Virus genome (UHGV): UHGV-0823586 | Source of the DNA: a virus | Length of the DNA stretch: 12,846 bases | Reading direction: 5' to 3' (one strand) | Shown here: positions 1-12,452 of the stretch, in pieces | Layout of the letters: each line of letters starts with the position of its first letter | Position numbering within the stretch: the first letter of the stretch is position 1 | Notes under the pieces: generated by a model | Told to the model about the DNA's origin: nothing | The model's database searches: none | What the model saw: the letters and a program-made list of their open reading frames with translations, nothing else | Made by a program: the position numbers and the translations under genes

Positions 1-1
1 G

Positions 2-40
2 CTGACTATTTATCAAATAGATAACCTTGCTAATAGTCAG
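2..40. repeat. Nested inverted repeat at the window edge: outer 9-bp arms CTGACTATT (2-10) and AATAGTCAG (32-40), inner arms TTATC (10-14) and GATAA (20-24)
   Basis: Read directly: the reverse complement of 2-10 equals 32-40, and an inner 5-bp inverted repeat with a 5-nt spacer lies inside the loop. The region is AT-rich and upstream of the 499-aa ORF. A possible sigma70-like -10 TAATAT lies at 59-64. Confidence 0.3.
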
Positions 41-96
41 ATGAAAAGCAAAGGAAGTTAATATTAGAACAGCTTGAGCCAGCTATTAATAACACC

Positions 97-1596
97 ATGG
101 CCCAGCTATATAACGGTGAGGTTCCAGATTATATACCGGCTCAGGAGACCATCATCAGGGGGTATGGAAAAAACGCAGATAAAATAATCAATCAACTGGA
201 TATAGCGATTGATAACGCGAGAATATTCCAGGCAATTCAGTATTTGCCTCCTTCTCAGCAGCAAGAAGAAATGCAGAAAGTGAAGCCTGAGGTTAACGAT
301 CCTCACTATGCGTTAAAACTCGATGCTTACGGAAAATTGTCTGCATTGCTTCAGAGATCAAATGAAGCAATTCAGGCGCAACGGGATTCACGCAGATTCA
401 ATGAGGCGCTGACAATAGGTGAAAAATTAGACCCAAGCAACAAGTCAATGCAGAAAGCTGCTGATTACACAGAAATGGCGCAGAACTTTCGTATTAATGA
501 TGTCTCCACTCATGATGGGGTTGTTCGGCTTGTGGCTCAGACTGGCATAATGCCTTCGCAGGTCATCACGCAGCTTTCAGCAGTATCCCGATCCAGCAAT
601 CAGGAAGTGGTTAAAAATGCGGCGGAACTGTTTAGTCGGTTATATGAAACAGACAATGCATCTATTGGAAATATGCCGAAGGATATGCAGGGTTTTTATC
701 TGACTGTTAAGCAACTAACTGATTCTGGCATGTCTGCTGATGCGGCTATCGAGCAGGCGCAGAACCTTACGTACAACCAGACCGATGCTCTTAAAGCTCA
801 ATTGGCATCAACGCAGAGTTCAAAAGAGTACAAAAATGATCGCAGCAAGGCGATGAATTCTGCTGTCAGCAATATGGCGCAGTGGTTCCGTTGGGATCCG
901 TCTGCGGATGACCAGACGCCGGAAGCAGCTAGATTCCGTAATGACTATCAGACGCTGTATGACATTAACTACCGCGTTGCTGGTGGTAACGCTGACGTAG
1001 CGAAGCAAATGACCAACCAGCAGATAGCCCGCACCTGGAGTATCAGCGAGGTTAACGGAGAAGCGCAGTTTATGAAATATGCACCGGAGGCGCTTTATCA
1101 ATATGGGCCGTCAGGCTGGCAGGCGGCGCAGTGGAAAGCTGAAAAAGAACGGCTGATGTACGGTGAGCGCAAAGAGATTATAACAACCAGTCCGACGTTG
1201 CTTGGGATCACGTCAGGTAATGCTCCTGTAGTTGAGACAAAAACCCCTGAGAGTCGTATTAATGGAGAATTATTCATAACCCCTGACGTGTTAACACCCC
1301 GTAATGGTGATTACGCCATTATGGTAAGAACTAAGGATAAAAATGGCATCGATCGGGTCCAGCCGTTTTATAACAAACATGGGCGTCCTATGCGTTGGGA
1401 ACCATCACTAGAAGATTGGGAACCTTATAAGGAAATGCAGCAGGAACGGGAGCAGTACGAGCAGGAAGAAATTATGCGTGGACAGGCTATACGAAACTTC
1501 AAAGACAAGCATCGCGCTCTGGATGAGCAGTATCAGCGCCTGCATAACGAACGTATGGACAAATTTAAAGATTACTTTTCGTGGGGATCTAAATAA
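97..1596 (+). CDS. Hypothetical protein, 499 aa, Gln/Glu-rich and probably largely alpha-helical; possibly a virion internal/ejection protein or an accessory gene
   Basis: Long uninterrupted ORF with an ATG at 97 and in-frame stops upstream at 22-24 and 34-36. It has no convincing Shine-Dalgarno sequence. Its stop TAA (1594-1596) overlaps the ATG of the next gene (TAATG). I recognise no enzymatic motif and no P-loop. Confidence 0.55.
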   Translation: MAQLYNGEVPDYIPAQETIIRGYGKNADKIINQLDIAIDNARIFQAIQYLPPSQQQEEMQKVKPEVNDPHYALKLDAYGKLSALLQRSNEAIQAQRDSRRFNEALTIGEKLDPSNKSMQKAADYTEMAQNFRINDVSTHDGVVRLVAQTGIMPSQVITQLSAVSRSSNQEVVKNAAELFSRLYETDNASIGNMPKDMQGFYLTVKQLTDSGMSADAAIEQAQNLTYNQTDALKAQLASTQSSKEYKNDRSKAMNSAVSNMAQWFRWDPSADDQTPEAARFRNDYQTLYDINYRVAGGNADVAKQMTNQQIARTWSISEVNGEAQFMKYAPEALYQYGPSGWQAAQWKAEKERLMYGERKEIITTSPTLLGITSGNAPVVETKTPESRINGELFITPDVLTPRNGDYAIMVRTKDKNGIDRVQPFYNKHGRPMRWEPSLEDWEPYKEMQQEREQYEQEEIMRGQAIRNFKDKHRALDEQYQRLHNERMDKFKDYFSWGSK

Positions 1597-2432
1597 TGCC
1601 AGTTTATGCACAAGCTGAAGATCTTAATAACGGACTGATCCCGTCAGGTAATATTTTGCCGGAACAAACTGGGTTTGATGTTGCCCCTCCGGAAGGGGCT
1701 AATCCTGAGCCATTGCCACCTGAGCCTTCCGTATGGGGGGCTGCAATGCGACAGAACAATATTCTGTCTGGTTTTTTCCGCCCAGCCAGACAGTTTGAAC
1801 CGGTCGAGGGTTATAACCCATATGCTGATAAAAATGAGTTGCACGGTTATGAATACTGGGGGGCGAAATTTGCAGATTCCCGATCGCCAGAGGAAACGGC
1901 GTGGATTAAGCAGCAGATAGATGATGAAAATGAAGACAGACGTTTATTGTCTGATGCTGGCGTAGTTGGAACCATTGCCAGTATTGCTGCGGGAATGGAT
2001 CCGGTTACTGTTGCGTCAATGTTTATTCCCGGTGCTCAAGGAGGGGCACTGGCGCGTATTGGCTCACAGATTGCGATTGGTGCTGCCGGTACAGCATTAA
2101 GCGAGGTTGTACTGAATAATCAGCAAATAACACGCTCATGGGGTGAAAGTGCCGCTCACGTTGCAGCGGGTGCGATGATGAGCGGCGTGTTTGCCAGTGC
2201 TGGTGTTGCGCTTTCGCCATCCGTCCGGGCTGCAGCCACGCGTGAGGTTGCTGATGCTCTTGATAATATGAGCATTACATCAGCGACTGACAGGGCTGCC
2301 GCTTCGCTTTCTGATGGTGGTAGTGTTGGTGCTATGAAAATTGATACAGCGACTCTGGATGATTTAACCCCTGTTTCCGGTGGGTGGGTTGGAAAGGCTG
2401 CATGGAAGATTTCGGATAAATTCTTCTTCTGA
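1596..2432 (+). CDS. Hypothetical protein, 278 aa, with Gly/Ala-rich hydrophobic segments (glycine-zipper-like); possibly membrane-active
   Basis: ATG at 1596 is coupled to the upstream stop, with GGGGA 8 nt upstream. The central region (GVVGTIASIAAGMDPVTVASMFIPGAQGGALARIGSQIAIGAAGTALS ... AAGAMMSGVFASAGVALS) has repeated small-residue spacing typical of membrane-inserting segments. The stop TGA is at 2430-2432, inside the 3' end of the convergent minus-strand gene. Confidence 0.55.
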   Translation: MPVYAQAEDLNNGLIPSGNILPEQTGFDVAPPEGANPEPLPPEPSVWGAAMRQNNILSGFFRPARQFEPVEGYNPYADKNELHGYEYWGAKFADSRSPEETAWIKQQIDDENEDRRLLSDAGVVGTIASIAAGMDPVTVASMFIPGAQGGALARIGSQIAIGAAGTALSEVVLNNQQITRSWGESAAHVAAGAMMSGVFASAGVALSPSVRAAATREVADALDNMSITSATDRAAASLSDGGSVGAMKIDTATLDDLTPVSGGWVGKAAWKISDKFFF

Positions 2433-3467
2433 TATTTCACCTTTACGTGGATCACCGACTTTGGCGATCAGTTTATCCACGTTACCCATCCCCCAGTTAT
2501 ATGCTGCTCCGGCCAATATTTCGGAGCCGTACTTACCATACAGTTGATTTACATAGTCACTGGCAAGCATTTCATGCTGTTGTTCGTCCGTAGGGTTGTA
2601 TTCAACGCCACGTTTGGCCGCCAGTTCTTTCCCTGTGCCCGGCATTAACTGGTATTTCCCCTGGGCCCTCTCTCCAGAAGATGTTTTCGGTCCTTCAAGA
2701 ATACTACCATCAGGATTAAAATGACGATCACCTGATTCAACAAGGCGTATGGCACGCATGTCCATGCCTCCAGAATCATTTTTCTGAAACTGACCATTTA
2801 ACCATCCTTCCGGATTAGCAGCGGCATAATTCTTCGCCCGCATTTCTGTGGCACTGCGATCATCACTTTCTATTTCTTCCAGAATGCGTTCTTGTGACCA
2901 TCCCCTGGCTGCTCCATATCTGGCAATGGCTACCATTCTGGAATTTCTGGCTAAAGTGGCAGTTTGCGGGTCATTCCAGGCATCCGCTTCATTTTGTATC
3001 CATAATTTTCTCGTTGCCTGATATTGCTCATCTTCATAGGCATTTGTCTGCCCTATCTCATGTCTGAGAACTCCAGTACTGAACTGAATTTTCTGTGTTC
3101 TGGCTTGTTGCAAAAACATATTTCTTGCTGCTTCATCAGTCAATGAAGCAGCTATTTCTTCCACATCCTGATCAAATCCAGATATGTACTCTTGCCCCTT
3201 ACCAATCGCATTTTTGCCTTGTTGTGCATAAAAACCGGTTTGAGGGTTATAAAGACGTTCATTGCTGCGCTGATTAAGCTGAAGGATGGCATCCTGAGAC
3301 AATGCAACATTCGCTTTCTGCCTGGCTTCACCATATGCCACCGCATACTGATCTGCGACATTCGCCAGCACCTGACCTGCTTGAGGAACATCGAAGGTCT
3401 GAAAACCACCGGTTTGCACACCACGACTTTGCACCTGGCGTCCGGATGTAGTAGGAACAACAGGCAT
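2364..3467 (-). CDS. Internal virion protein with a C-terminal soluble lytic transglycosylase (SLT-like) domain
   Basis: Motifs read in the translation: catalytic-type E-S-G (RLVESGDRHF), then GKYQLMPGT, then AYNWG, in the order expected for family-1 lytic transglycosylases. The first codon in the ORF track is TTG; the ATG is at 3465-3467 and overlaps the upstream stop (TGATG). It sits where the T7 gp16 transglycosylase would be expected. Confidence 0.7.
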   Translation of the reverse strand: MPVVPTTSGRQVQSRGVQTGGFQTFDVPQAGQVLANVADQYAVAYGEARQKANVALSQDAILQLNQRSNERLYNPQTGFYAQQGKNAIGKGQEYISGFDQDVEEIAASLTDEAARNMFLQQARTQKIQFSTGVLRHEIGQTNAYEDEQYQATRKLWIQNEADAWNDPQTATLARNSRMVAIARYGAARGWSQERILEEIESDDRSATEMRAKNYAAANPEGWLNGQFQKNDSGGMDMRAIRLVESGDRHFNPDGSILEGPKTSSGERAQGKYQLMPGTGKELAAKRGVEYNPTDEQQHEMLASDYVNQLYGKYGSEILAGAAYNWGMGNVDKLIAKVGDPRKGEISEEEFIRNLPCSLSNPPTGNRG

Positions 3468-4033
3468 CAATAACCTCCTATTTTGAATCGGGAGTCAGAA
3501 TTCATAAAACCTGAGTTAGATAACATTGGCGTGTTTCCTTGCTTACTAATCGGATTGATACTTCCGCCACCCAACTTATATGCACCGTATGCTTTTAGTG
3601 GTGCCGTTAACAAAGTGCTGGTCATCGATGATTTAGCAGCCGACTGAGCAGCAGCCCCCTGTGCCTGAGCATTCATTCCCTGAACCTGATACCCATATGC
3701 CTCACGCTGAGCATTATTCACTGTCGTTAACGCATCAAGAGTGCCGAACTGAGCATTATCCGCAAAAACGTCAAGAGCTGTTCCGCTACTTAATTCCGCA
3801 CCGGTAGCCCCCATAGTGGCCGCCGCAGTGCCTGAGCGTTGACGCATTTCACGACGACGCTGATCCGCTTCAATATTCCCACGATTGATTGAATCCTGTG
3901 CCTGAGCTTCAGCAATTTCAGCATTCCGATCAGCTATGGCTGACTGGTATTTTGCCTGCTTGCTCTGGCTGTACATTGACGCGGCTGTGGATGCCACTGT
4001 GACGGCAACCAAAGCGATGGCTGGGTTACACAT
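3467..4033 (-). CDS. Putative internal virion/ejection protein with an N-terminal transmembrane segment (T7 gp14 positional analogue)
   Basis: ATG at 4031-4033 overlaps the upstream stop (TAATG). The N-terminus is hydrophobic (NPAIALVAVTVASTAAS) and is followed by a Gln/Ala-rich, probably helical region. The gene lies between the tubular proteins and the transglycosylase protein. Confidence 0.55.
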   Translation of the reverse strand: MCNPAIALVAVTVASTAASMYSQSKQAKYQSAIADRNAEIAEAQAQDSINRGNIEADQRRREMRQRSGTAAATMGATGAELSSGTALDVFADNAQFGTLDALTTVNNAQREAYGYQVQGMNAQAQGAAAQSAAKSSMTSTLLTAPLKAYGAYKLGGGSINPISKQGNTPMLSNSGFMNSDSRFKIGGY

Positions 4034-4497
4034 TATTTTCTCTCCATGTGAAATCTGTGGAAATTAAGACCAAGAGCACCATAAGGCGCGGCTTCTTCAA
4101 GCCTGAATCCAAGCCAGTGCAGCCATGCTTTGGCAACATGGTTTCGCTCGTCGACGTAGTTTTCCAAGCGCGGATAAACTGCCAGCATCTGCTGCAATAC
4201 AGGGCGGCAGTGGCGCAGAAATGTCTTCTGATATTTTTCAATACGGCTGGTCCCGACCAGCCATGGCGTACCATTGCCACCGATCATTGACGCCGGAGAT
4301 ACACCAAACATGGTTACCAGCTCTCCGTTCGCGAACCCTGACCAGGCCATAGTCGCAGTGCGCAGACCAACACGCAGCGCATCTTCGGTAGTCATCAGCG
4401 ATACCGCATACAGTTCGTCAATATCAGCCTGACGAACATCCGGCAAAATCATCTGAAGATGCTCTTCGGTAGCGGGAATAATTCGAACATCGATCAT
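4033..4497 (-). CDS. Hypothetical virion-associated protein, 154 aa (T7 gp13 positional analogue)
   Basis: ATG at 4495-4497 overlaps the stop of the 823-aa gene (TGATG). The call rests on position in the operon only; I recognise no motif. Confidence 0.5.
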   Translation of the reverse strand: MIDVRIIPATEEHLQMILPDVRQADIDELYAVSLMTTEDALRVGLRTATMAWSGFANGELVTMFGVSPASMIGGNGTPWLVGTSRIEKYQKTFLRHCRPVLQQMLAVYPRLENYVDERNHVAKAWLHWLGFRLEEAAPYGALGLNFHRFHMERK

Positions 4498-6968
4498 CAG
4501 AATCCCCCAACAGTAAGGCGAGGAATAACGGCAAGAACAGACAGCGGCAACGGGTCAAGCTGACGGATTTTTACACGTCCGTTTTTGCCCCAGTTACTGT
4601 CCAGTTTCACTTCTACTTTTCCGGTAGCATCATCAACAGGATCATCGTAGAACTCGAATTCACGCTGTGGATATTCGTACCATTTACCGCCGGGCGTAGT
4701 CGCCCAGATGCCGCGGCTGGCATTCACAACCAGAGTAACGGACGGGATCACCTGTTTTTTGTCCAGCAGCGTTTCCTGTCCGTTAATGTTGATATCCAGT
4801 GTTTCGAATTCAGCAGTTATTGGCAGGCCGATGTGAACTACAGCCCCCGGAGATTCCAGCGTGACGGCACCTCCGGAAACCACTTTCTGTGGTTCCACGT
4901 TCGCATCAGAGAGAATGTTTACGGTCTGGCCTTCAAGATGAGACAGGCCTCCAAATGTCCGGCGCGCCATCTGCCAGTTCGTGGTGGCCACATTCCTGAG
5001 GGATGGCGGGACGTTCCTGTTAGCACGAACCACTACAGCGGTATTGCTGGTTACAGAAATAATGTCGCAACGTAATTCTTTTGACACCTCATCACCAGTA
5101 TCAGGATCAGTTCCGGTATAAGGGAACTGTAGTTGCGCGCCGACATCACTACTGGTGAAGTACGCACCACCAGAAACACTGATTGTATATTCCGCGCGGT
5201 AATCCCATTCACCAGAACCACCAGTGATGGTCATCGTTCTGTCAGACGTATTTCTTCCATCATAGCTAAGGCCAGAATCAACAAAGAAAGCATCTTCATC
5301 GCTGGTAAATAAACGGCTGGACAGTCGCTCGATGTATCTCACTGTTTGCCCGTTAACGGTTCGGTTAACGACGAAATACACCGCATCTTCATTTCCTTCG
5401 CTGATACTGCATGTGCTTTCATATTTTCCGGTACTGGATTGTGGTGCCCATGCAAAAACCTGCTGATCACGCAAATAGGTCATCACCAGTAATTTACCGT
5501 CATCACGAATGCAGAAGGCGCTGGAGTAAGGGACAATAGAGAAGCACCAGTCAACAATACTGTGCTTCTGAAAAAGATGATTGGCAAGGATGGTCAGGTC
5601 GTTCCCCTGATAGCCGTCAACATCGAATGAGTAGGCCAGATCACGGACAACACTGCCTTTCTCCTGGACGAACAGAGCAATATTCGCCACGGCAATTGGT
5701 GGGACATTGCTCGAGCCATTTGATCCCTGAGAGCTGAATGCAAATGATGATGGGGTAAGCACTTTGTTCTGGTCGCCAGTGATGACGTACTCACCTCCGG
5801 AAGTCAGCGCCACCAGCGAACCAACATCAATCAGGTGACGGATCTCATTAACCTGACGCCCGGCATAGGTGTAGATAATTCTGTCGTCATCCTGCGTAGG
5901 ATTGCTTTTGCCAAAATCCTTATAATCCCCGGTACGGCTGGCCCAGATAGTCTGAGGAAACGCAGTCGATGCGGCGAAGTAAAGACGTTGTTGATAATAA
6001 ACAACAGTGCCAGGATAACCATTAACACTGTTCCAGGCATATTTAGCCCATTTATAGCTGGCATTATCCTCGCCAACTACCTGCGAAGGGATATAGGAAA
6101 TCACCTCGGCAGTTGCAGTAGTTCCATTTGCAGCAGTGATACGGGCAATGCCAAAACCACTGTGCAGATATTCCCACTCAATGCCAGTATCATCATCACC
6201 GGATCCGCCCCAGCCATCCCATGATGTGCCTTCTGTATGCGAAGGGCGCAAAGTACCTGTTTTGCCTGCTTTAACGGCGCGATAGTAGTTACTGTCTGCT
6301 CGGCGAATATCGCCAATCGACGTACTCTTACTGGTTTCCCATACCGGCACAGAATCCACTGCAGGCTGTTCCAGATAGAACAATTTGCCTACCTGCTCCG
6401 CGCCAAAAATAGAGGCGCTTGCCGTTAGCGTAATTGTCCCGGTGCTGGCGCTGGCATAAACCGTCACTGACTCGTCAATATTGATATCTTCAAATGGCCC
6501 GTTCTTCGTTACCACATCAACCAGTTGCCAGTTGTCATGCGCATAGCGGCGCAACTCTTTCGGCGGGTATGCCGGATGAACCAGCGTAAGCACGTCTGCG
6601 CTTTGCGTGAATTTAATTCGGAACAGATCGGCTTCAGTATATGGCGTGGAAATTTCATAAATAACATTGCTGCTGTTCAGCACCAACGCACCATCTTTGA
6701 TAACGCGCATGTACTGGTGTCCGAACTCCAGAGCATAAGTCTGAACCGTCGAGAACTGGAACGGGATCAGGCGGCATTTCCGATTTGGATATTTGGCGGC
6801 ACCGACAAAACGCGTACCAGGTCGATTCTCAACGCCGCCATACTGCCGCACGATAAAGTTATCGCACTTGCGCAATGCCACCTGGTACTTCGCCATGTCG
6901 ATACGTCCGTACAACGACGGTCCAATCTCACCACCAGCAAAGCTGGGCTGGATCCAACTGATAGCCAT
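4497..6968 (-). CDS. Tail tubular protein B / nozzle (T7 gp12-like)
   Basis: The 823-aa ORF directly follows the gp11-like gene with a TGATG overlap. Its size is close to T7 gp12 (about 794 aa) and the gp11-gp12 order is conserved. The assignment is by size and synteny, not by sequence alignment. Confidence 0.65.
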   Translation of the reverse strand: MAISWIQPSFAGGEIGPSLYGRIDMAKYQVALRKCDNFIVRQYGGVENRPGTRFVGAAKYPNRKCRLIPFQFSTVQTYALEFGHQYMRVIKDGALVLNSSNVIYEISTPYTEADLFRIKFTQSADVLTLVHPAYPPKELRRYAHDNWQLVDVVTKNGPFEDINIDESVTVYASASTGTITLTASASIFGAEQVGKLFYLEQPAVDSVPVWETSKSTSIGDIRRADSNYYRAVKAGKTGTLRPSHTEGTSWDGWGGSGDDDTGIEWEYLHSGFGIARITAANGTTATAEVISYIPSQVVGEDNASYKWAKYAWNSVNGYPGTVVYYQQRLYFAASTAFPQTIWASRTGDYKDFGKSNPTQDDDRIIYTYAGRQVNEIRHLIDVGSLVALTSGGEYVITGDQNKVLTPSSFAFSSQGSNGSSNVPPIAVANIALFVQEKGSVVRDLAYSFDVDGYQGNDLTILANHLFQKHSIVDWCFSIVPYSSAFCIRDDGKLLVMTYLRDQQVFAWAPQSSTGKYESTCSISEGNEDAVYFVVNRTVNGQTVRYIERLSSRLFTSDEDAFFVDSGLSYDGRNTSDRTMTITGGSGEWDYRAEYTISVSGGAYFTSSDVGAQLQFPYTGTDPDTGDEVSKELRCDIISVTSNTAVVVRANRNVPPSLRNVATTNWQMARRTFGGLSHLEGQTVNILSDANVEPQKVVSGGAVTLESPGAVVHIGLPITAEFETLDININGQETLLDKKQVIPSVTLVVNASRGIWATTPGGKWYEYPQREFEFYDDPVDDATGKVEVKLDSNWGKNGRVKIRQLDPLPLSVLAVIPRLTVGGF

Positions 6969-7573
6969 CAGGACAACCTCGCAATGGTAAACTCGTCAAC
7001 CGGTGGCTGTGGTTCCTGTGATTCATTCTGGCTATGCGAGCCAGCACTAAGAATCACGCGATTGTACATATTGAGGGCAAACGTACCGAGGTCTGCATTC
7101 CCAGTCAGCGCCATGTTAATAGCTGCCGCAAGACGCCAGGCCAACGCCTCCATAAAAATGGCATCAAACATGTTCACATCTGTAACGCGAGAGACATACT
7201 TGAGCCATGCCTGAGGCTGGTCTGTGTAGATCAACTTTCCTGTTCCGTTGGTGTCTGCACCAACTTCGTACTGAACGCGCATTGCTGCTGTTGGATTGCG
7301 TACACCAGGAAGCATAATTTCAGTAATGCGCAGACAATCTGACGGGTACTGGTACGCATATTCCCAGTCAGGCGGTGGATTGCTCGTATCTGCAAGCGCC
7401 ACGCGTTTGGTAGCAAAGTTCCAGTCAAAATCAGAAAGCACAGTATCACGGCAGGCCTCAAAGTGCAGCGAACATTCCCCCGCTTCCTTGCTGGCTTCCG
7501 TCAGGCTGTTAATGCTGCGGCTGTTGCCAATATTGGACAGCGCACGATTACAGATCTCTACTACAGAGGCCAT
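6968..7573 (-). CDS. Tail tubular protein A / adaptor (T7 gp11-like)
   Basis: About 201 aa from the ATG at 7571-7573 (the ORF track starts at a GTG 3 nt upstream). A GGAGGT Shine-Dalgarno lies 5 nt upstream. The N-terminal pattern (ICNRALSNIGNSRSINSLTE ... WNFATKRVAL) resembles the N-terminus of T7 gp11 as I recall it. Size and position before the large nozzle gene match. Confidence 0.65.
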   Translation of the reverse strand: MASVVEICNRALSNIGNSRSINSLTEASKEAGECSLHFEACRDTVLSDFDWNFATKRVALADTSNPPPDWEYAYQYPSDCLRITEIMLPGVRNPTAAMRVQYEVGADTNGTGKLIYTDQPQAWLKYVSRVTDVNMFDAIFMEALAWRLAAAINMALTGNADLGTFALNMYNRVILSAGSHSQNESQEPQPPVDEFTIARLS

Positions 7574-7896
7574 CACTCACCTCCGTTACCGTACAGAGTT
7601 TCAGCCGCTGATTTTTCTACATCCCCGGAAACAGGAGCGATCGCCATATCAGTGATCTGCAGATCGGCGCTGCGATTAACGCCATCGTCAGTTTCTCTGG
7701 CAGACAGGCCTCGAATAACAGCCTTTGCAGTTATCATCACTTCCGTTCCGACGCCCTTAGGTTGCGCCTTCAGCTTATTCAATGTGTCGTTATTCAGCGT
7801 GATGCACAGCCCCCACGGGTATTCATCGCGAGTTCTGGTTTCTCCGCTCTCATCCTGGTAGCTGTCAGTGCCGGTTTTGAGGTTTACGAGTTCCAT
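7573..7896 (-). CDS. Hypothetical small protein, about 107 aa, first gene after the terminator hairpin
   Basis: ATG at 7894-7896 with AGGAG 5 nt upstream; the ORF track starts at a GTG at 7902. Its stop overlaps the start of the gp11-like gene (TGATG). Confidence 0.5.
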   Translation of the reverse strand: MELVNLKTGTDSYQDESGETRTRDEYPWGLCITLNNDTLNKLKAQPKGVGTEVMITAKAVIRGLSARETDDGVNRSADLQITDMAIAPVSGDVEKSAAETLYGNGGE

Positions 7897-7912
7897 ATAC
7901 ACTCCTGCAATA

Positions 7913-7930
7913 AAGGGGCCGAAGCCCCTT
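7913..7930 (-). terminator. Rho-independent terminator hairpin on the minus strand: 7-bp stem AAGGGGC/GCCCCUU with a UUCG tetraloop, followed by UAUU
   Basis: Read directly: 7913-7919 pairs perfectly with 7924-7930 around loop 7920-7923. On the minus-strand RNA the stem is followed by a U-rich run (UUUAUU, counting the closing stem Us). It lies between the stop of the 111-aa gene (7947) and the Shine-Dalgarno of the 107-aa gene. Confidence 0.6.
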
Positions 7931-7946
7931 GTCTGATCCGCGAGGC

Positions 7947-8282
7947 TTACACGCCCAGTTCTTTACGCTTATCTGCGATCTTCTCGCGGAGCGTTTCGGC
8001 TTTGGCGTTATGGTGTGGCTTCTGGTTAAAGAGCAATTCGTACTCTTCACGGAGCTTATCCAGTTCACCATCATCTGACACATCGTTGATGATTTTGGTG
8101 CTGGTTGCTGCCATTGACACCTTTCCTGCAACTTTTGCTTTTGCCTGTCTGGCTGCATCGTTAACAGGTTCCAGTGCGCTACCAGGCTCACCTTCGTATT
8201 CGATTTCTGCCCCCTCCGGCCACAGAGTGTTATGGATATGAGAGAGGCGCAGAACGCGGTATCTTGGTTTCTCACCTGACAT
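7947..8282 (-). CDS. Hypothetical small protein, about 111 aa
   Basis: ATG at 8280-8282 with AAGGTG 6 nt upstream; the ORF track starts at a GTG at 8291. Charged, helical-looking C-terminus. No motif recognised. Confidence 0.5.
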   Translation of the reverse strand: MSGEKPRYRVLRLSHIHNTLWPEGAEIEYEGEPGSALEPVNDAARQAKAKVAGKVSMAATSTKIINDVSDDGELDKLREEYELLFNQKPHHNAKAETLREKIADKRKELGV

Positions 8283-8292
8283 CAATATCACC

Positions 8293-8730
8293 TTAACCAG
8301 TTACTTTTGAGCGGATCGGATACGGCGTATTGGCATCAACATCCAGACTGATACCCGCAGTGAATTTGCCGGCCGTTAGTGGGCCAGTTGCGACGGAGTA
8401 GTTAACACGCAGATATCGCTGAACACCGGCAGGCACCTTTGCAGAAACAACTCGTTTACCTGCTGTCAGGGTATCCTTTGCCAGTGCGCCACTATCATAA
8501 ATAGTGGACCATGAGCTGTTATTCTCACTCGTCTGCAACTGGATGTTTACAGTTTCCTCACCACTTGCCGTGGCGGCTTCGTTAACCAGCACCCAAAACT
8601 CAAGCGGATAACCCACGCCGATATCACGACGTTTTCCGTCAATTGGACCGAGATCGATTACGTCAGTAGAAGCCGCGGTATTCGTAACCGCCTGAGCTTC
8701 GGAGAACATCAACAGTTTGTCGGTGATCAT
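8293..8730 (-). CDS. Hypothetical Ser/Thr-rich, probably beta-rich protein, 145 aa; possible capsid decoration or head-associated protein
   Basis: ATG at 8728-8730 with GGAG 7 nt upstream. It lies immediately downstream of the capsid gene. The composition (TAG/TGP/SVATG repeats) suggests an Ig-like or decoration-type fold, but this is inference only. Confidence 0.5.
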   Translation of the reverse strand: MITDKLLMFSEAQAVTNTAASTDVIDLGPIDGKRRDIGVGYPLEFWVLVNEAATASGEETVNIQLQTSENNSSWSTIYDSGALAKDTLTAGKRVVSAKVPAGVQRYLRVNYSVATGPLTAGKFTAGISLDVDANTPYPIRSKVTG

Positions 8731-8745
8731 CTTCTTTCTCCATTA

Positions 8746-8765
8746 GTGGGTCTGTTACGACCCAC
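8746..8765 (-). promoter_or_regulatory. Intercistronic stem-loop (7-bp stem GTGGGTC/GACCCAC, 6-nt loop) between the capsid gene and the next gene; possible RNA processing or stabilising element
   Basis: Perfect inverted repeat 8746-8752 / 8759-8765 inside the 51-nt gap after the capsid stop. It has no U-tract, so it is not a canonical terminator. Confidence 0.4.
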
Positions 8766-8781
8766 AGGTTAATAACAGGCG

Positions 8782-9774
8782 TTACACCACGCGGGCTTCT
8801 GTTTCCAGAAGCGCATCAGTTTCACGGATTGGTACACCACGGAATGAAGTCCACCACTCGCCTTCTGTCTCTTTTACGCTGATCGCCAGAGATGTTTTCT
8901 CCAGAGATTGCAGATCAAGAGCCTGGCCTACAGTGCGGTTCATGTAGAACACCGGGCGACCCATGCCACGATTTGGAATGCGATGCAGTGCTTTAACCAT
9001 CAACTTCGCAATATCTGCGGCAGAGGAAGGTTCTGAAAGATTGCTGACATCGATGTTTGCAATGCGAACAACATAACGCCAGTCACGCAGAGCAAGTCCG
9101 TTGTCCCATTTGTAATGGGTACGGTAGCCTTCGTACTTGCCGCCATTCGCATCTTCCAGTGTCACCTGGCCTTTATCTTCCATCTGGATGCCAGCCTTCT
9201 GCCCTTTCGGGAAGATGCCATGCACGGTGTTTTCGCCCCACACCACTAACCAGATTGAGGTGTTATCTGTACCCGTGCCACCAGCATCAATGATGTTCTG
9301 AGCATTACCCGCAGACAGGCTGGAATAGCGGGAGGACAGTCCCATAAACTGCTGAGGGTTAACGCTGGAATCACCATAAAACAGTGTCTGCGCCATCTGC
9401 TGATTCATCGCTTCAATAAATGCGCGGTCTTCAGACAGGCGGAATTCGGCAGTATTACCGTTCAGATCAGCCAGTGACTTATCGACTTCAGCATAGGTTT
9501 CCAGCATGCCAACGTAATCGGTTACCTGCACTGTGGTTGATTTGCTTGGCTGTACGCCATAGTTCAGCAAACGCCAGGTAGCTGAAGGTAAACCAGAACG
9601 AATGGTGGTTCGGTGTCCGGTAGGAAGGTTCCCTTCGACAAAAGGCATATCCTGAAGGATCGGGTTTGTTTGACCGAGAAGCTCGATAATCTTATCGACT
9701 TTCCCGTTTGGATCGACGCGCTTACCCCAGTCAGCCAGCGTTAGCGCAGTTAAGCCTTTAACAGCCATTGTCAT
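8782..9774 (-). CDS. Major capsid protein (putative)
   Basis: The 330-aa ORF follows the scaffold-like gene and precedes a stem-loop, the classic scaffold-then-capsid arrangement. The true start may be the second ATG at 9766-9768, which has better spacing to GAGAGG. The call is by size and synteny; the sequence does not obviously resemble T7 gp10. Confidence 0.65.
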   Translation of the reverse strand: MTMAVKGLTALTLADWGKRVDPNGKVDKIIELLGQTNPILQDMPFVEGNLPTGHRTTIRSGLPSATWRLLNYGVQPSKSTTVQVTDYVGMLETYAEVDKSLADLNGNTAEFRLSEDRAFIEAMNQQMAQTLFYGDSSVNPQQFMGLSSRYSSLSAGNAQNIIDAGGTGTDNTSIWLVVWGENTVHGIFPKGQKAGIQMEDKGQVTLEDANGGKYEGYRTHYKWDNGLALRDWRYVVRIANIDVSNLSEPSSAADIAKLMVKALHRIPNRGMGRPVFYMNRTVGQALDLQSLEKTSLAISVKETEGEWWTSFRGVPIRETDALLETEARVV

Positions 9775-9782
9775 TTCCTCTC

Positions 9783-10478
9783 TTATTTGCCATAGAGCAC
9801 TTCGGCCGCACTACGCTGGCCTTCATTACCACCGGTGACCATGCCATCTTCAGACATCGCCTTTCCGATTCTCACGAACGTTTTGACCAGATCAGGGTGA
9901 TTACCCAGCCCGGTGGTGTTCAGATATTCTTTGAGTTCAGGTGTCCCGAACTGGTCAAGCGCACGCTGTGCGACGCTAAGGTTAGAAATCAACTTGCCGC
10001 CACCGATTTCTTTGTCAGCTTTTACATCCGCAGCCCACTGCTCGGTTGTTTTCTGCCAGGCTTCTGCCTGGCGCTGCTGAACACCTGCCAGAATCTTCGG
10101 ATAAGCATCAACCAGCTTTTGCGCTTGCTCGTTGGTCAGGTTAAGTTCTCGCGCCACCGGCTCGAATTCCTTCAACGCTTCTGTATCCAGCTCTACGCCT
10201 TCGGCAGCCTGAAACTCGTACTTCTCAGGCGCACCCTCTGGTTTATCGCCGTCCTTTTTTTCACCCTGCTTATCGTTTTCAGGCTTTTTGTCATCAGCAG
10301 GTTTATCGCCATCAGCAACAGGTTGTGGCTTATCACCTTCCGGTTGTGATGGATCACCAACTGGAGCAGGGTTATCACCTGCAGGCGCTGACGGTTCTGA
10401 CGCAGCCGGAGCTGCTCCACCATCGACTGGTTGCTCATTGCAAAGACGGCGATACAGCAAACGCTCAAATAAATTCAT
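9783..10478 (-). CDS. Scaffolding protein (putative), with a Pro/Asp/Lys/Glu-rich low-complexity N-terminal region and a helical C-terminal domain
   Basis: ATG at 10476-10478 with AGGAG 5 nt upstream; the ORF track starts at a GTG at 10484. It lies between the portal and capsid genes. The acidic low-complexity linker (PAPAASEPSAPAGDNPAPVGDPSQPEGDKPQP...) is typical of scaffold proteins. Confidence 0.55.
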   Translation of the reverse strand: MNLFERLLYRRLCNEQPVDGGAAPAASEPSAPAGDNPAPVGDPSQPEGDKPQPVADGDKPADDKKPENDKQGEKKDGDKPEGAPEKYEFQAAEGVELDTEALKEFEPVARELNLTNEQAQKLVDAYPKILAGVQQRQAEAWQKTTEQWAADVKADKEIGGGKLISNLSVAQRALDQFGTPELKEYLNTTGLGNHPDLVKTFVRIGKAMSEDGMVTGGNEGQRSAAEVLYGK

Positions 10479-10480
10479 GA

Positions 10481-10777
10481 TCACTCCTGTTCACTGGCCT
10501 CTTTGGCCATCTTCAAATACTGTTCAGGGCAATGCGCCATAACGCGCTGAAACAGTTCCAGCGCCAGATTGCGTTGCCCCTCATTAAATGCCATTGCCAT
10601 AGCGTCCATCGGTGAGATAGCGGAAAACACACGGCCTTTCTCCAGCACCGACCAGACAACGCGACGCCCCTGTTCACTGCTCATGACAAAGCAAATGTCA
10701 TCAATTTCACGCTGTGCCATGTCACGTTGCTTACGGGCGTTTTCTTCTTTCAGTTGATCGTCTTCGTAATCTGTCAT
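10481..10777 (-). CDS. Hypothetical small acidic protein, 98 aa, between portal and scaffold
   Basis: ATG at 10775-10777 overlaps the portal stop (ATGA). Charged and helical-looking. Function unknown. Confidence 0.5.
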   Translation of the reverse strand: MTDYEDDQLKEENARKQRDMAQREIDDICFVMSSEQGRRVVWSVLEKGRVFSAISPMDAMAMAFNEGQRNLALELFQRVMAHCPEQYLKMAKEASEQE

Positions 10778-12452
10778 TGTGATTGCCCACCCTGACCACT
10801 AACTGCATTCGCCATAGCTGACAAAACACTCGGATCCGAAGTTTTAGCTTCGCTTAGCGTCTTGGCACCCTGTGCCGCCGCCATCCCCATCGCCATCATT
10901 TGTTGCTGCTGTTGTTGCTGTGCCCGTTGCTGGCGAGCCTGCTCAACCTGTTCCTGCGGAACAATGACGGTTGGAGACACTCCGGACATATCAGCGAATG
11001 CATCGATCGCCTGATCAACGTTGAGTTTGTCGAGAGCTTCTGGTTTCGCTTGCGCAAGTTGACCAATGAAGTTGACCGTAGACGCCAGACTGGACAGGCC
11101 GATAGACTTCTGCGCCTGAGCCATGACGGAAATGTATTCGACCTTCAGGGGCATACCTTCCATCACGTCAGGCGGTGGCGGCAGCATGTTTTTACGCACC
11201 ATCATCGAGAAAGCGCGGTCAATGAGAGGATTAAGACATTCGTCGTTCAGACGCTCCAGAACCGGCCCAACATCAGAAGTTTTTCTTCTTTCATTTCGAT
11301 CACCGCTTCAACAGGCATCGAGCGGGTATTGATGTTCTGCAACATCATGAACAGATCGACAAAGTAGGCGCTGTTAATGATTTGACGGGTGTCCTGAATG
11401 TCTGCCACCAAATCTGCTGTACTGGGGTTAACCAGATAAGCAGGCCTGAAACCATCCTGACCAGTAATCAGATCGATATACGTGATGTCGCCAGGAAGAA
11501 GGGAGGCACGCTGATTCTTGAGGGAAGTCGGAGCAACCATCGGCGGATTGGTGGCTTTATCAATCAACTGCGACTTGCGCTTCTGGAGAAGCTGCAATGC
11601 CTTAACAGGTCCAAGCGCCAGCATACCCGGGCATGATGATCCATAAACATCTTCGCCGTTAACTTCCCAGCGCGGAGCCATAATTGGAAACTCATCGAAT
11701 CCGGACTCACGCAACAACTTGTCGTTATCGCCACCAACCTCGTAATAAACCGATTTGAATGGCTTGTTCTTGCTATCCAGCTTCGATGTATCGCGGTCAA
11801 TGTTCGGGTAAACCGAATGCATCACTTCAATCCACTTCTCGTAGGTTCCGCTTTCCCACATGCTTTTTACGGATTCGCTGACGTTATTTAGCCCGAACTC
11901 CTGAACAAGCTGACGAACAGTCATAGAGAACTTGCGAAAACAGGTGTCCACACTGCCACGAGGTGAGTTAGCCAGGTAGTAACTGCCTATCGGGAATGGC
12001 ATTGTGCGAATGATGTCCTCGTCATCCTCCAGCACTGCCATTGCACCAGTGCTGTATGTGCCGAGGCTTCCGTATAACTGCGGCAGCGACTGATAGAGAT
12101 TCGACTTATTGAACATATCGTTCATGCGGTTCTGCACCGCCTCAAGCCACAACTTAACAGGGCCATAATCCATCATTTCAGGATCTGGCGTAGCCAGGCG
12201 AAACCACGGACGCGCGGGGCTTGTGATGCCTGACATCATGCCGCTGGCGAGAGTGCGCGCCGCCATAGTCCCGGTCGAATCAATAATGCGTGTATTGCGT
12301 CGATCGTTACGGTTGACCTCAGAAGTCAGAAAGCGGGAACCACGCGGGTTGATGTAATCACTCAACTCGCGCCAGTGCGGCTCGAACGACTGACGCTCGC
12401 TTTCAAGTTGTGCGAACTGTTTGTTCAATCGCTCTTTAGTTGTTTCCGCCAT
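10774..12452 (-). pseudogene. Portal (head-to-tail connector) protein, T7 gp8-like, interrupted by a frameshift near 11280-11284
   Basis: Two adjacent ORFs (12452..11247, 401 aa; 11205..10774, 143 aa) belong to one gene. The downstream frame is open from 11307, and a single extra A in the A5 run (T5 on the plus strand, 11280-11284) joins them into one protein of about 545 aa. The C-terminal part (QQRAQQQQQQQMMAMGMAAAQG...) resembles the T7 gp8 C-terminus as I recall it. ATG at 12450-12452 with GGAG upstream. Confidence 0.8.

What the first reader, a model, noticed from the sequence alone, without database searches (positions are those of the whole stretch)
7573..8730. Three small genes inserted between capsid and tail tubular A that have no counterpart in canonical T7
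In T7 the capsid gene is followed directly by gp11. Here three ORFs (145 aa Ser/Thr-rich and probably beta-rich; about 111 aa; about 107 aa) sit in that position, and the terminator falls between the second and third. They are candidates for decoration, head-completion or head-tail joining proteins particular to this lineage. I recognise none of them.
Basis: inference. Interest (0 to 1): 0.45.

Follow-up and report, generated by a model that had tools for sequence, protein, structure and literature searches.

The report
Epsilon15-type capsid cement gene trio
The three small genes are the already known gp8-gp9-gp10 set of epsilon15/phiV10-type phages: the first encodes the capsid "cement" protein, the third belongs to a family that databases probably mislabel as that cement, and the second has no known function.

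Summary
Three minus-strand genes lie between the major capsid gene and the adaptor (tail tubular A) gene: 8293-8730 (145 aa), 7947-8282 (111 aa) and 7573-7896 (107 aa). A GC hairpin sits between the second and third.

They are neither new nor particular to this lineage. The window is a phiV10/epsilon15-like (Uetakevirus) prophage of E. coli, 98% identical to phiV10. The region occurs in 538 of 5426 complete E. coli genomes. The trio matches epsilon15 gp8-gp9-terminator-gp10 gene for gene.

- **ORF1** is a Bbp16-family cement (decoration) protein. It matches Pfam at 1.7e-47 and is 44% identical to the BPP-1 cement protein solved at 3.5 Å.
- **ORF3** is a homolog of epsilon15 gp10, which PDB 3J40 models as the staple and RefSeq names "capsid staple protein". 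That role very probably belongs to gp8/ORF1. The gp10/Bbp20 family is large (3566 clusters), has no known function, and its gene sits beside the terminase, portal or adaptor gene.
- **ORF2** (phrog_590) has a small N-terminal module, a linker of variable length and a conserved C-terminal module. Its function is unknown.

This is ordinary, known biology. The useful points are the annotation caveat and one open family.

The parts
8293..8730 (-). ORF1, 145 aa: Bbp16-family capsid cement (decoration, 'staple') protein; ortholog of epsilon15 gp8
   Evidence: Pfam PF21190 Bbp16 at 1.7e-47, 160.9 bits against a cutoff of 27.1. PDB 3J4U_H BPP-1 cementing protein at 1.8e-27 and 8CJZ_B (Cobetia phage Carin1 cement protein) at 1.7e-22. 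44% identical to Bbp16 and 36% to epsilon15 gp8. RefSeq names it 'Bbp16 family capsid cement protein'.
7947..8282 (-). ORF2, 111 aa: ortholog of epsilon15 gp9 (phrog_590). It has a small N-terminal beta module, an Ala/Lys-rich helix, a variable linker and a conserved basic C-terminal helix-extended-helix module. Function unknown.
   Evidence: phrog_590 at 1.3e-60. No Pfam, NCBIfam or PDB match. 39% identical to epsilon15 gp9; the N-terminal 46 aa are 48% identical to Caulobacter phage Jess A gp045. The AF2 model is weak, pLDDT 64. Homologs carry 1-4 tandem copies of the linker. The C-terminal module also occurs in stand-alone small phage proteins.
7907..7930 (-). Terminator-like hairpin (stem 7924-7930 / 7913-7919, UUCG loop 7920-7923) followed by UAUUG, between ORF2 and ORF3
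   Evidence: Sequence and fold. Identical in Tyrion. Epsilon15 has a hairpin plus T-run of different sequence at the same position, annotated as a rho-independent terminator. BPP-1 has CGGGGGC-TTCGT-GCCCCCG followed by CTTTTTC between bbp15 and the adaptor gene. The consensus scan did not call the window's hairpin.
7573..7896 (-). ORF3, 107 aa: gp10/Bbp20-family protein (PF21628, phrog_825); ortholog of epsilon15 gp10. Its TGA overlaps the adaptor ATG (ATGA).
   Evidence: Pfam PF21628 at 7.3e-52. PDB 3J40_N 'gp10' at 1.2e-21. 43% identical to epsilon15 gp10 and 49% to BPP-1 Bbp20. AF2 model pLDDT 77 with two hairpins, not a jellyroll. No match to a solved fold. The BFVD hit to BcepC6B gp06 has E 5e-6. 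3566 clusters.
8746..8765 (-). Stem-loop GUGGGUC-GUAACA-GACCCAC in the capsid-cement intergenic spacer
   Evidence: Tyrion keeps the stem through a compensatory T:A to C:G change, and BPP-1 has an unrelated GC hairpin at the same position. Function not tested.
8782..9774 (-). Major capsid protein (epsilon15 gp7 family), context
   Evidence: PF20911 GP7 at 4.5e-149. RefSeq 'major capsid protein'.
6968..7573 (-). Adaptor / tail tubular protein A homolog (epsilon15 gp11), context
   Evidence: phrog_394 tail protein at 8.7e-87. Epsilon15 gp11 is annotated by HHpred to T7 tail tubular protein A, 3J4B.
4497..6968 (-). Nozzle / tail tubular protein B homolog (epsilon15 gp12), context
   Evidence: phrog_376 at E 0. 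Epsilon15 gp12 is listed as a tubular tail B homolog in PMC4819975.

Best explanation
The region is the gp8-gp9-terminator-gp10 segment of an epsilon15/phiV10-type (Uetakevirus) prophage head-tail operon, read on the minus strand.

**ORF1.** It is the capsid cement protein, an eight-stranded jellyroll. [quoted passage not shown] They clamp capsomers against DNA pressure.

**ORF2.** It is co-transcribed with the capsid and cement genes, upstream of a terminator-like hairpin. It is a flexible two-module protein of unknown role. My inference is a non-icosahedral accessory or assembly factor whose basic C-terminal module may bind nucleic acid.

**The hairpin.** Like T7's terminator after gene 10, it probably lowers transcription into the neck and tail genes.

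**ORF3.** It lies downstream of the hairpin and is translationally coupled (ATGA) to the adaptor gene. It belongs to the very widespread gp10/Bbp20 family. It is most likely a low-copy virion-associated or head-completion factor working near the portal, not the capsid staple that its PDB and RefSeq labels state.

**Shown:** gene identities, homologies, synteny, the hairpin, and the published structures of relatives. **Inferred:** copy numbers in this phage, terminator function, and the roles of ORF2 and ORF3.
For: **Source and synteny.** The region is 98.4% identical to phiV10 and 99.9% to an E. coli prophage whose genes RefSeq annotates the same way. The gene order is identical to epsilon15, terminator included.

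**ORF1.** Pfam Bbp16 at 1.7e-47; PDB 3J4U_H at 1.8e-27; 8CJZ_B at 1.7e-22. In BPP-1, Bbp16 is one of the two most abundant virion proteins, was traced at side-chain level, and is essential (PMC3863775). Cement proteins are also modelled in Carin1 and in PhiXacm4-11, with seven cement and seven capsid subunits per asymmetric unit at 3.16 Å.

**Epsilon15 re-evaluation.** Of four candidate proteins of similar size, only the 130-aa one fits the 'gp10' density: map-model CC 0.61, or 0.81 after refinement, against 0.10 for gp10 (PMC9207676). That 130-aa sequence is gp8.

**ORF3.** The AF2 model has four strands in two hairpins and no jellyroll. It matches no solved fold. Its BPP-1 homolog Bbp20 lies next to the portal gene and is not part of the 3.5 Å shell. 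Gene position varies but is always beside the terminase, portal or adaptor gene. The ATGA overlap with the adaptor gene is read from the sequence.

**Terminator.** It is conserved by position, not by sequence, in epsilon15 and BPP-1.
Against: - PDB 3J40 and RefSeq assign the staple role to gp10, and a 2025 paper still does.
- According to PMC9207676, proteomics of epsilon15 virions identified gp10, not gp8.
- No structure or proteome exists for this phage itself.
- The hairpin's U tract is short. The scan did not call it, and its folding energy is not unusual for its composition (z = -0.79).
- In Vibrio phage 1.021.A, the gp10-like gene follows the post-cement gene with no detected terminator between them. 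The expression argument is therefore not general.
- The roles proposed for ORF2 and ORF3 rest on gene context and negative structural evidence only.
Confidence: 0.78

Rival explanations
1. The database reading is correct: ORF3 (gp10) is the capsid staple protein present 1:1 with the capsid protein, and ORF1 (gp8) has some other role in Uetakeviruses.
For: PDB 3J40 chains H-N are built with the gp10 sequence. RefSeq names the family 'capsid staple protein'. According to PMC9207676, proteomics of infectious epsilon15 identified gp10. PMC12391199 repeats the assignment.
Against: - The 3J40 map is 4.5 Å, by the record's own HHpred note.
- The gp10 AF2 model fits that map at CC 0.10, against 0.61-0.81 for gp8.
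- My ORF3 model has no jellyroll.
- Three related capsids solved at 3.2-3.5 Å use the Bbp16 family as cement.
- ORF1 is 44% identical to that cement protein.
- The BPP-1 homolog of gp10 (Bbp20) is absent from the BPP-1 shell model.
- Epsilon15 gp8 yields only 3 tryptic peptides of 7-25 aa, against 6 for gp10. A co-migrating minor gp10 could therefore have been the protein identified (inference).
Confidence: 0.06
2. ORF3 (the gp10/Bbp20 family) is an internal virion protein. It would be part of the core or ejection complex, or of the axial density in the portal channel, packaged at low copy and released at infection.
For: It was reported in epsilon15 virions, yet it is absent from the icosahedral and C6/C12 models of relatives. 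PhiXacm4-11 has an unassigned needle-like axial density and core density. The protein is small and acidic, pI 4.5. Its extreme N- and C-terminal motifs are conserved, and the model has a long beta-hairpin that suggests assembly into an oligomer.
Against: There is no direct localisation in any phage. The recognised core genes (T7 gp14-16 analogs) lie elsewhere, downstream of the nozzle gene. The PhiXacm4-11 proteomics table was not readable, so presence of its homolog gp18 in virions is unknown.
Confidence: 0.25
3. ORF2 and/or ORF3 are non-structural morphogenesis factors. They would act as chaperones for portal or adaptor incorporation, or for the switch from DNA packaging to head completion, and would be absent from mature particles.
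For: The ORF3 family gene sits next to the terminase, portal or adaptor gene in different lineages. Neither family is seen in any solved particle of the group. ORF2 is largely flexible, and its linker length varies freely.
Against: Proteomics is reported to have identified gp10 in infectious epsilon15 particles. ORF2 lies upstream of the terminator with the two most abundant shell proteins, which suggests high expression (inference).
Confidence: 0.3
4. One reading: three lineage-specific additions to a T7-type head-tail module, serving as decoration, head-completion or head-tail joining proteins.
For: None of the three matches a T7 protein family. ORF1 is a decoration protein. The adaptor and nozzle are T7-like.
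Against: The capsid protein, the scaffold-region genes (including the Bbp19-like gene) and all three small genes belong to the epsilon15/BPP-1 module, which is conserved from enterobacteria to Bordetella, Xanthomonas, Vibrio and Caulobacter. Nothing shows a head-tail joining role for ORF2 or ORF3.
Confidence: 0.1

Closest known systems
Salmonella phage epsilon15 gp8-gp9-gp10 (and the same genes in E. coli phage phiV10 / TL-2011b)
   Same: The gene order is identical: capsid, 130-145 aa Bbp16-like gene, about 100 aa gp9-like gene, terminator, about 110 aa gp10-like gene, adaptor, nozzle. The DNA is 98% identical to phiV10. The proteins are 36, 39 and 43% identical to epsilon15 gp8, gp9 and gp10.
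   Different: Compared with epsilon15, ORF1 is 15 aa longer at its C-terminus and ORF2 has a longer linker. The terminator sequence differs. This copy sits in a prophage with a frameshifted portal gene and an inverted segment.
Bordetella phage BPP-1 cement protein Bbp16 (PDB 3J4U chain H; Pfam PF21190)
   Same: ORF1 is 44% identical over 138 aa and matches the full-length Pfam model. Its gene also lies directly after the epsilon15-gp7-type capsid gene. A terminator follows the next small gene in both phages.
   Different: In BPP-1 only one small gene (bbp15, 68 aa) lies between the cement and adaptor genes. The gp10 homolog (bbp20) is next to the portal gene instead.
Epsilon15 gp10 'staple' (PDB 3J40 chains H-N; Pfam PF21628; RefSeq 'capsid staple protein')
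   Same: ORF3 is a clear sequence homolog (1.2e-21, 43% identity) occupying the same gene position.
   Different: The function attached to the name probably does not belong to this family. The ORF3 model is not a jellyroll and does not resemble any solved fold.
T7 gene 10 - T-phi terminator - gene 11 arrangement
   Same: A terminator lies after the abundant shell genes and before the adaptor and nozzle genes. The adaptor and nozzle are T7 gp11/gp12 homologs. The T7 gene order and T-phi are taken from established knowledge.
   Different: T7 has no cement protein, no gp9-like gene and no gp10/Bbp20-like gene. The capsid protein belongs to a different family (PF20911).

Membership tests
Bbp16 capsid cement protein family (PF21190) | Full-length match to the family profile above the curated cutoff | tested here: met
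   160.9 bits against a cutoff of 27.1; residues 9-127 cover profile positions 1-115 of 115.
Bbp16 capsid cement protein family (PF21190) | Sequence homology to cement proteins modelled in solved capsids | tested here: met
   3J4U_H at 1.8e-27 and 8CJZ_B at 1.7e-22. 44-45% identity to each.
Bbp16 capsid cement protein family (PF21190) | Gene immediately downstream of an epsilon15-gp7/Bbp17-type major capsid gene | tested here: met
   The capsid gene at 8782-9774 matches PF20911 at 4.5e-149, and ORF1 starts 51 nt downstream. The order is the same in BPP-1, Carin1, BcepC6B, Vibrio 1.021.A and Tabio.
Bbp16 capsid cement protein family (PF21190) | Eight-stranded jellyroll fold, with dimers on the outer capsid surface at two-fold and quasi-two-fold positions | not tested
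The feature is inferred from 44% identity to 3J4U_H. Capsid binding needs cryo-EM of this phage.
gp10-like family (PF21628 / phrog_825) | Full-length profile match and homology to epsilon15 gp10 | tested here: met
   174.2 bits against a cutoff of 27. phrog_825 at 1e-57. 3J40_N at 1.2e-21.
Capsid 'staple' function attached to gp10 (PDB 3J40, RefSeq name) | Fold compatible with the staple density (six to eight beta strands in a jellyroll) | tested here: not met
Capsid 'staple' function attached to gp10 (PDB 3J40, RefSeq name) | Presence at about 1:1 with the capsid protein in virions | not testable with these tools
   This needs quantitative virion proteomics. Two indirect points weigh against it: the gene lies downstream of the terminator, and its BPP-1 homolog is not among the two abundant virion proteins.
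T7 head-tail gene set | Homologs of the three ORFs among T7 proteins | tested here: not met
   None of the three hits a T7 family in Pfam or PHROGs. Only the adaptor, nozzle and gp13/gp14-like genes relate to T7.
HeH / SAP-like DNA-binding motif (ORF2 C-terminal module) | Match to a curated HeH, SAP or Rho_N profile, or a confident helix-extended-helix fold | tested here: inconclusive
   No Pfam hit even at E <= 10 and no PDB hit. AF2 gives helix 73-86, an extended stretch, then helix 98-108, but at pLDDT 55-72. The module's basic residues are invariant, and it recurs in stand-alone small phage proteins.

The most novel reading that the evidence does not exclude
The gp10/Bbp20 family (ORF3) is a near-universal component of epsilon15/BPP-1/CP2-type podophages that has not been seen in any structure. 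It would be an asymmetric or internal portal-channel or core protein, or a factor that hands the DNA-filled head from terminase to adaptor. Its true role would have been hidden since 2008 by misassignment as the capsid staple, a label that RefSeq now propagates.
Probability: 0.3. Interest if true: 0.55.

Novelty: already known. Interest (0 to 1): 0.22.

Why it matters
For genome annotation, this region shows how a low-resolution model assignment can spread. The protein named "capsid staple protein" (ORF3) is probably not the staple. The real cement protein is its neighbour ORF1, which also carries a separate, correct name. Anyone engineering phiV10/epsilon15-type capsids for display or reporter phages, or interpreting their proteomes, should target ORF1.

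Biologically, the module is well understood for ORF1. Two conserved small proteins remain without a function. One of them belongs to a family of more than 3500 sequence clusters, which makes it a reasonable target for a knockout and localized cryo-EM study. Nothing here changes current understanding of phage assembly.

Tried and rejected
- **Carin1 gp40.** I considered whether ORF3 equals the Carin1 'head spike base protein' gp40, or gp38, which occupies the same position before the connector gene. The sequences are unrelated, so I rejected this.
- **ClpP fusions.** Two ORF3 hits carry ClpP segments (P0022, P0117). On reading the sequences they look like assembly chimeras joined at a short shared motif, so they give no functional clue.
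- **ORF2.** Pfam at E <= 10, NCBIfam, and PDB searches with the single sequence, the family profile and an N-terminal-domain profile all gave nothing credible; DivIVA, hemagglutinin and cupin hits at E of about 0.2-1 were rejected. The AF2 model was too weak (pLDDT 64) to justify a fold search. My recollection of a resemblance to B. subtilis YqbF (N-terminal domain plus HeH) could not be tested and is not claimed.
- **Broader gp10 profile.** A profile of 106 sequences searched against PDB found only 3J40_N.
- **Literature.** The primary epsilon15 proteomics and genetics papers (PMC2698709, PMC3832910, PMC1559657) are not held. No paper was found for Carin1. No Uetakevirus virion proteome was found. 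The PhiXacm4-11 proteomics table is an image.
- **Early wrong turn.** I first thought BPP-1 lacks a gp10 homolog, because only bbp15 lies between its cement and adaptor genes. Bbp20 corrected this.
Full report
**1. What is in the sequence**

All long ORFs from about 2400 to 12450 lie on the minus strand and form a phage head-tail operon. In the direction of transcription they are:
- portal, split here into 401 and 143 aa;
- a 98-aa Bbp19-like protein;
- a 233-aa scaffold or 'protease' region protein;
- the major capsid protein (8782-9774);
- ORF1 (8293-8730, 145 aa);
- ORF2 (7947-8282, 111 aa from the ATG with an AAGGTGA ribosome-binding site);
- a GC hairpin (7913-7930);
- ORF3 (7573-7896, 107 aa from the ATG preceded by GGAG);
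- the adaptor (6968-7573), nozzle (4497-6968), a gp13-like protein and a gp14-like protein;
- a lytic-transglycosylase internal protein.

ORF1's stop codon is 10 nt from ORF2's start. ORF3's TGA overlaps the adaptor ATG as ATGA.

**2. Where it comes from**

The 2.9-kb region is 98.4% identical to Escherichia phage phiV10 and related phages, 83% to Enterobacter phage Tyrion (genus Uetakevirus), and about 77% to Salmonella phages. It is present in 538 of 5426 complete E. coli genomes, almost always on the chromosome, and is 99.9% identical to a prophage in strain SURV0398.

RefSeq annotates the three genes there as 'Bbp16 family capsid cement protein', 'hypothetical protein' and 'gp10: capsid staple protein'. 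Epsilon15 has the same order: gp7 capsid protein, gp8 (130 aa), gp9 (94 aa), an annotated rho-independent terminator, gp10 (111 aa), gp11 adaptor and gp12 nozzle. ORF1, ORF2 and ORF3 are 36, 39 and 43% identical to gp8, gp9 and gp10. The trio is a standard part of a known phage type, not an insertion into a T7 module.

**3. ORF1 is the cement protein**

- It matches Pfam Bbp16 over the full profile (1.7e-47).
- It matches the BPP-1 'cementing protein' chain 3J4U_H (1.8e-27) and chain 8CJZ_B (1.7e-22). The latter is the cement protein gp42 of Cobetia phage Carin1.
- In BPP-1, Bbp16 and the capsid protein are the two most abundant virion proteins. Bbp16 was traced for 139 of 140 residues as a two-sheet jellyroll with an exposed C-terminal extension, and deleting it abolishes infectious particles (PMC3863775).
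- A 2026 preprint on Xanthomonas phage PhiXacm4-11 shows the same arrangement at 3.16 Å. There are seven cement and seven capsid subunits per asymmetric unit. [quoted passage not shown]

By homology, ORF1 does the same job here. I did not model ORF1 itself.

**4. ORF3 and the 'staple' label**

ORF3 matches Pfam PF21628 (7.3e-52) and chain 3J40_N, 'gp10' of epsilon15 (1.2e-21). In the 4.5 Å epsilon15 model, gp10 was built into the density that corresponds to the BPP-1 cement protein.

Hryc and Baker (PMC9207676) re-examined this with AlphaFold2. The gp10 model did not fit the map (CC 0.10). A 130-aa epsilon15 protein did fit (CC 0.61, or 0.81 after refinement). They concluded that gp10 was probably misassigned. 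Their 130-aa sequence (supplement) is identical at its N-terminus, and nearly so throughout, to my translation of epsilon15 gp8, which is the Bbp16 homolog.

My own results agree:
- The ORF3 model (pLDDT 77) has two hairpins and two short helices, not a jellyroll.
- It resembles no solved fold.
- ORF1 and ORF3 share no sequence similarity.

A possible reason for the original assignment is that gp8 gives only 3 tryptic peptides of 7-25 aa (36 of 130 residues), while gp10 gives 6 (90 of 111). A minor co-migrating gp10 would then be the easier protein to identify. This is inference.

**5. What ORF3 might be**

The BFVD search linked the ORF3 model to BcepC6B gp06 (E 5e-6). Direct translation showed that BPP-1 Bbp20 (109 aa) is a clear homolog (49% identity; shared motifs YP[WY]GL, LQITDM, LYG).

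The family occurs in 68 phage records and in 3566 clusters at 50% identity. Among the 150 best hits it is almost always a stand-alone protein of about 100-112 aa, aligned from end to end. The conserved positions suggest no catalytic residues.

Gene position varies but stays within one neighbourhood:
- before the adaptor gene in Uetakeviruses and Vibrio phage 1.021.A;
- right after the portal gene in BPP-1, BcepC6B, Caulobacter phage Jess A and a metagenomic contig;
- between the large terminase and portal genes in Xanthomonas CP2-like phages.

No member has been modelled in the icosahedral shells of BPP-1, Carin1 or PhiXacm4-11, nor in the 3.45 Å C6 portal-tail model of PhiXacm4-11. Proteomics is nevertheless reported to have identified gp10 in infectious epsilon15 particles.

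The most economical reading is a low-copy, non-symmetric virion-associated protein or head-completion factor acting near the portal. An internal location or a purely morphogenetic role remain open. None of this is shown.

**6. ORF2**

ORF2 belongs to phrog_590. It has no Pfam, NCBIfam or PDB relative.

The alignment shows three parts:
- a conserved N-terminal module of about 40 aa;
- an Ala/Lys-rich stretch and a linker that is duplicated 1-4 times in natural variants;
- a strongly conserved basic C-terminal module (consensus LDKLREEYExLFNEKPHHNxKAETLREKIAxKRKELGV).

AF2 gives only a weak model: two strands, a long helix, and a helix-extended-helix C-terminus, at pLDDT 64. The N-terminal module is significantly similar to the gene following the cement gene in Caulobacter phage Jess A (4e-8). 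BPP-1, BcepC6B, Vibrio and Xanthomonas phages also have a small protein with a charged tail at that position, but homology to those is not significant. The C-terminal module recurs in stand-alone small phage proteins.

The HeH-like reading and the nucleic-acid-binding idea are inference. The function is unknown.

**7. Regulation**

The hairpin between ORF2 and ORF3 (AAGGGGC-UUCG-GCCCCUU, then UAUUG) is identical in Tyrion. In epsilon15 it is replaced by a different hairpin plus T-run at the same site, annotated as a terminator. BPP-1 has a strong terminator, CGGGGGC-TTCGT-GCCCCCG followed by CTTTTTC, between bbp15 and its adaptor gene. A terminator after the shell genes and before the neck and tail genes is thus conserved by position, as with T-phi after T7 gene 10 (established knowledge).

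Two caveats apply. The consensus scan did not call the window's hairpin, and its folding energy is not exceptional. Function as a partial terminator is inferred.

**8. Verdict**

The locus is already known and already annotated. Its residual interest lies in a probable annotation error for ORF3 and in two conserved small proteins of unknown function.

Noticed in passing
window 10774-12452 (about 11265): The portal gene is split into 401-aa and 143-aa ORFs by a one-base deletion in a short C/G run (CCGG-CCC against CCGGCCCC). A 99.9%-identical prophage has an intact 559-aa portal. This is either a recently inactivated prophage or a homopolymer sequencing error.
   Followed up: partly
window 1-2407, junction at 2402-2407: Bases 1-2407 are inverted relative to the rest of the operon when compared with phage TL-2011b (99.3% identity). 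The inverted part holds the C-terminal part of the gp15-like lytic transglycosylase and the start of the gp16-like gene. The junction overlaps by 6 bp and 55 bp are missing, so the gp15-like gene is broken at 368 aa. The inverted block starts exactly at the window edge, so an assembly artefact cannot be excluded.
   Followed up: partly
window 8746-8765: A stem-loop (GUGGGUC-GUAACA-GACCCAC) lies in the 51-nt spacer between the capsid and cement genes. Tyrion keeps it through a compensatory T:A to C:G change. BPP-1 has an unrelated GC hairpin at the same place, and epsilon15 has none. It may be an mRNA processing or stability element, or an element that tunes translation.
   Followed up: partly
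window 7573-7896 and RefSeq annotation in L001 7674-7997: RefSeq names the gp10 family 'capsid staple protein' and Pfam calls it 'Major coat protein-like', while the neighbouring gene is correctly named 'Bbp16 family capsid cement protein'. The two names describe the same structural role, and the published refit favours the Bbp16 homolog.
   Followed up: yes
homologs of window 7947-8282 (P0118, P0153, P0154, P0161, P0150): Natural variants of ORF2 carry one to four tandem copies of a 16-30 aa Ala/Lys-rich linker unit, giving lengths of 111 to 192 aa. The two terminal modules stay nearly invariant.
   Followed up: partly
L005 (Cobetia phage Carin1) 4031-5993: In Carin1 the space between the cement and connector genes holds different genes: a 29-aa ORF, a 92-aa 'head spike base protein' (annotated in the GenBank record as structurally identified and validated), a 384-aa protein and a 132-aa protein. 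The slot between cement and adaptor genes therefore varies across the group.
   Followed up: partly
window 4033-4497 and 3467-4033: The 154-aa protein matches phrog_308 'internal virion protein' and weakly matches T7 gp13. Its epsilon15 counterpart is annotated as GNAT-like. The 188-aa protein is named 'virion core protein, T7 gp14 family' in RefSeq. The ejection-protein block is T7-like although the head genes are not.
   Followed up: no
proteins P0022 and P0117 (hits to ORF3): Two metagenomic 'proteins' join gp10-like sequence to ClpP protease sequence at the short shared motif QITDMAI. They look like assembly chimeras, not real fusions.
   Followed up: partly
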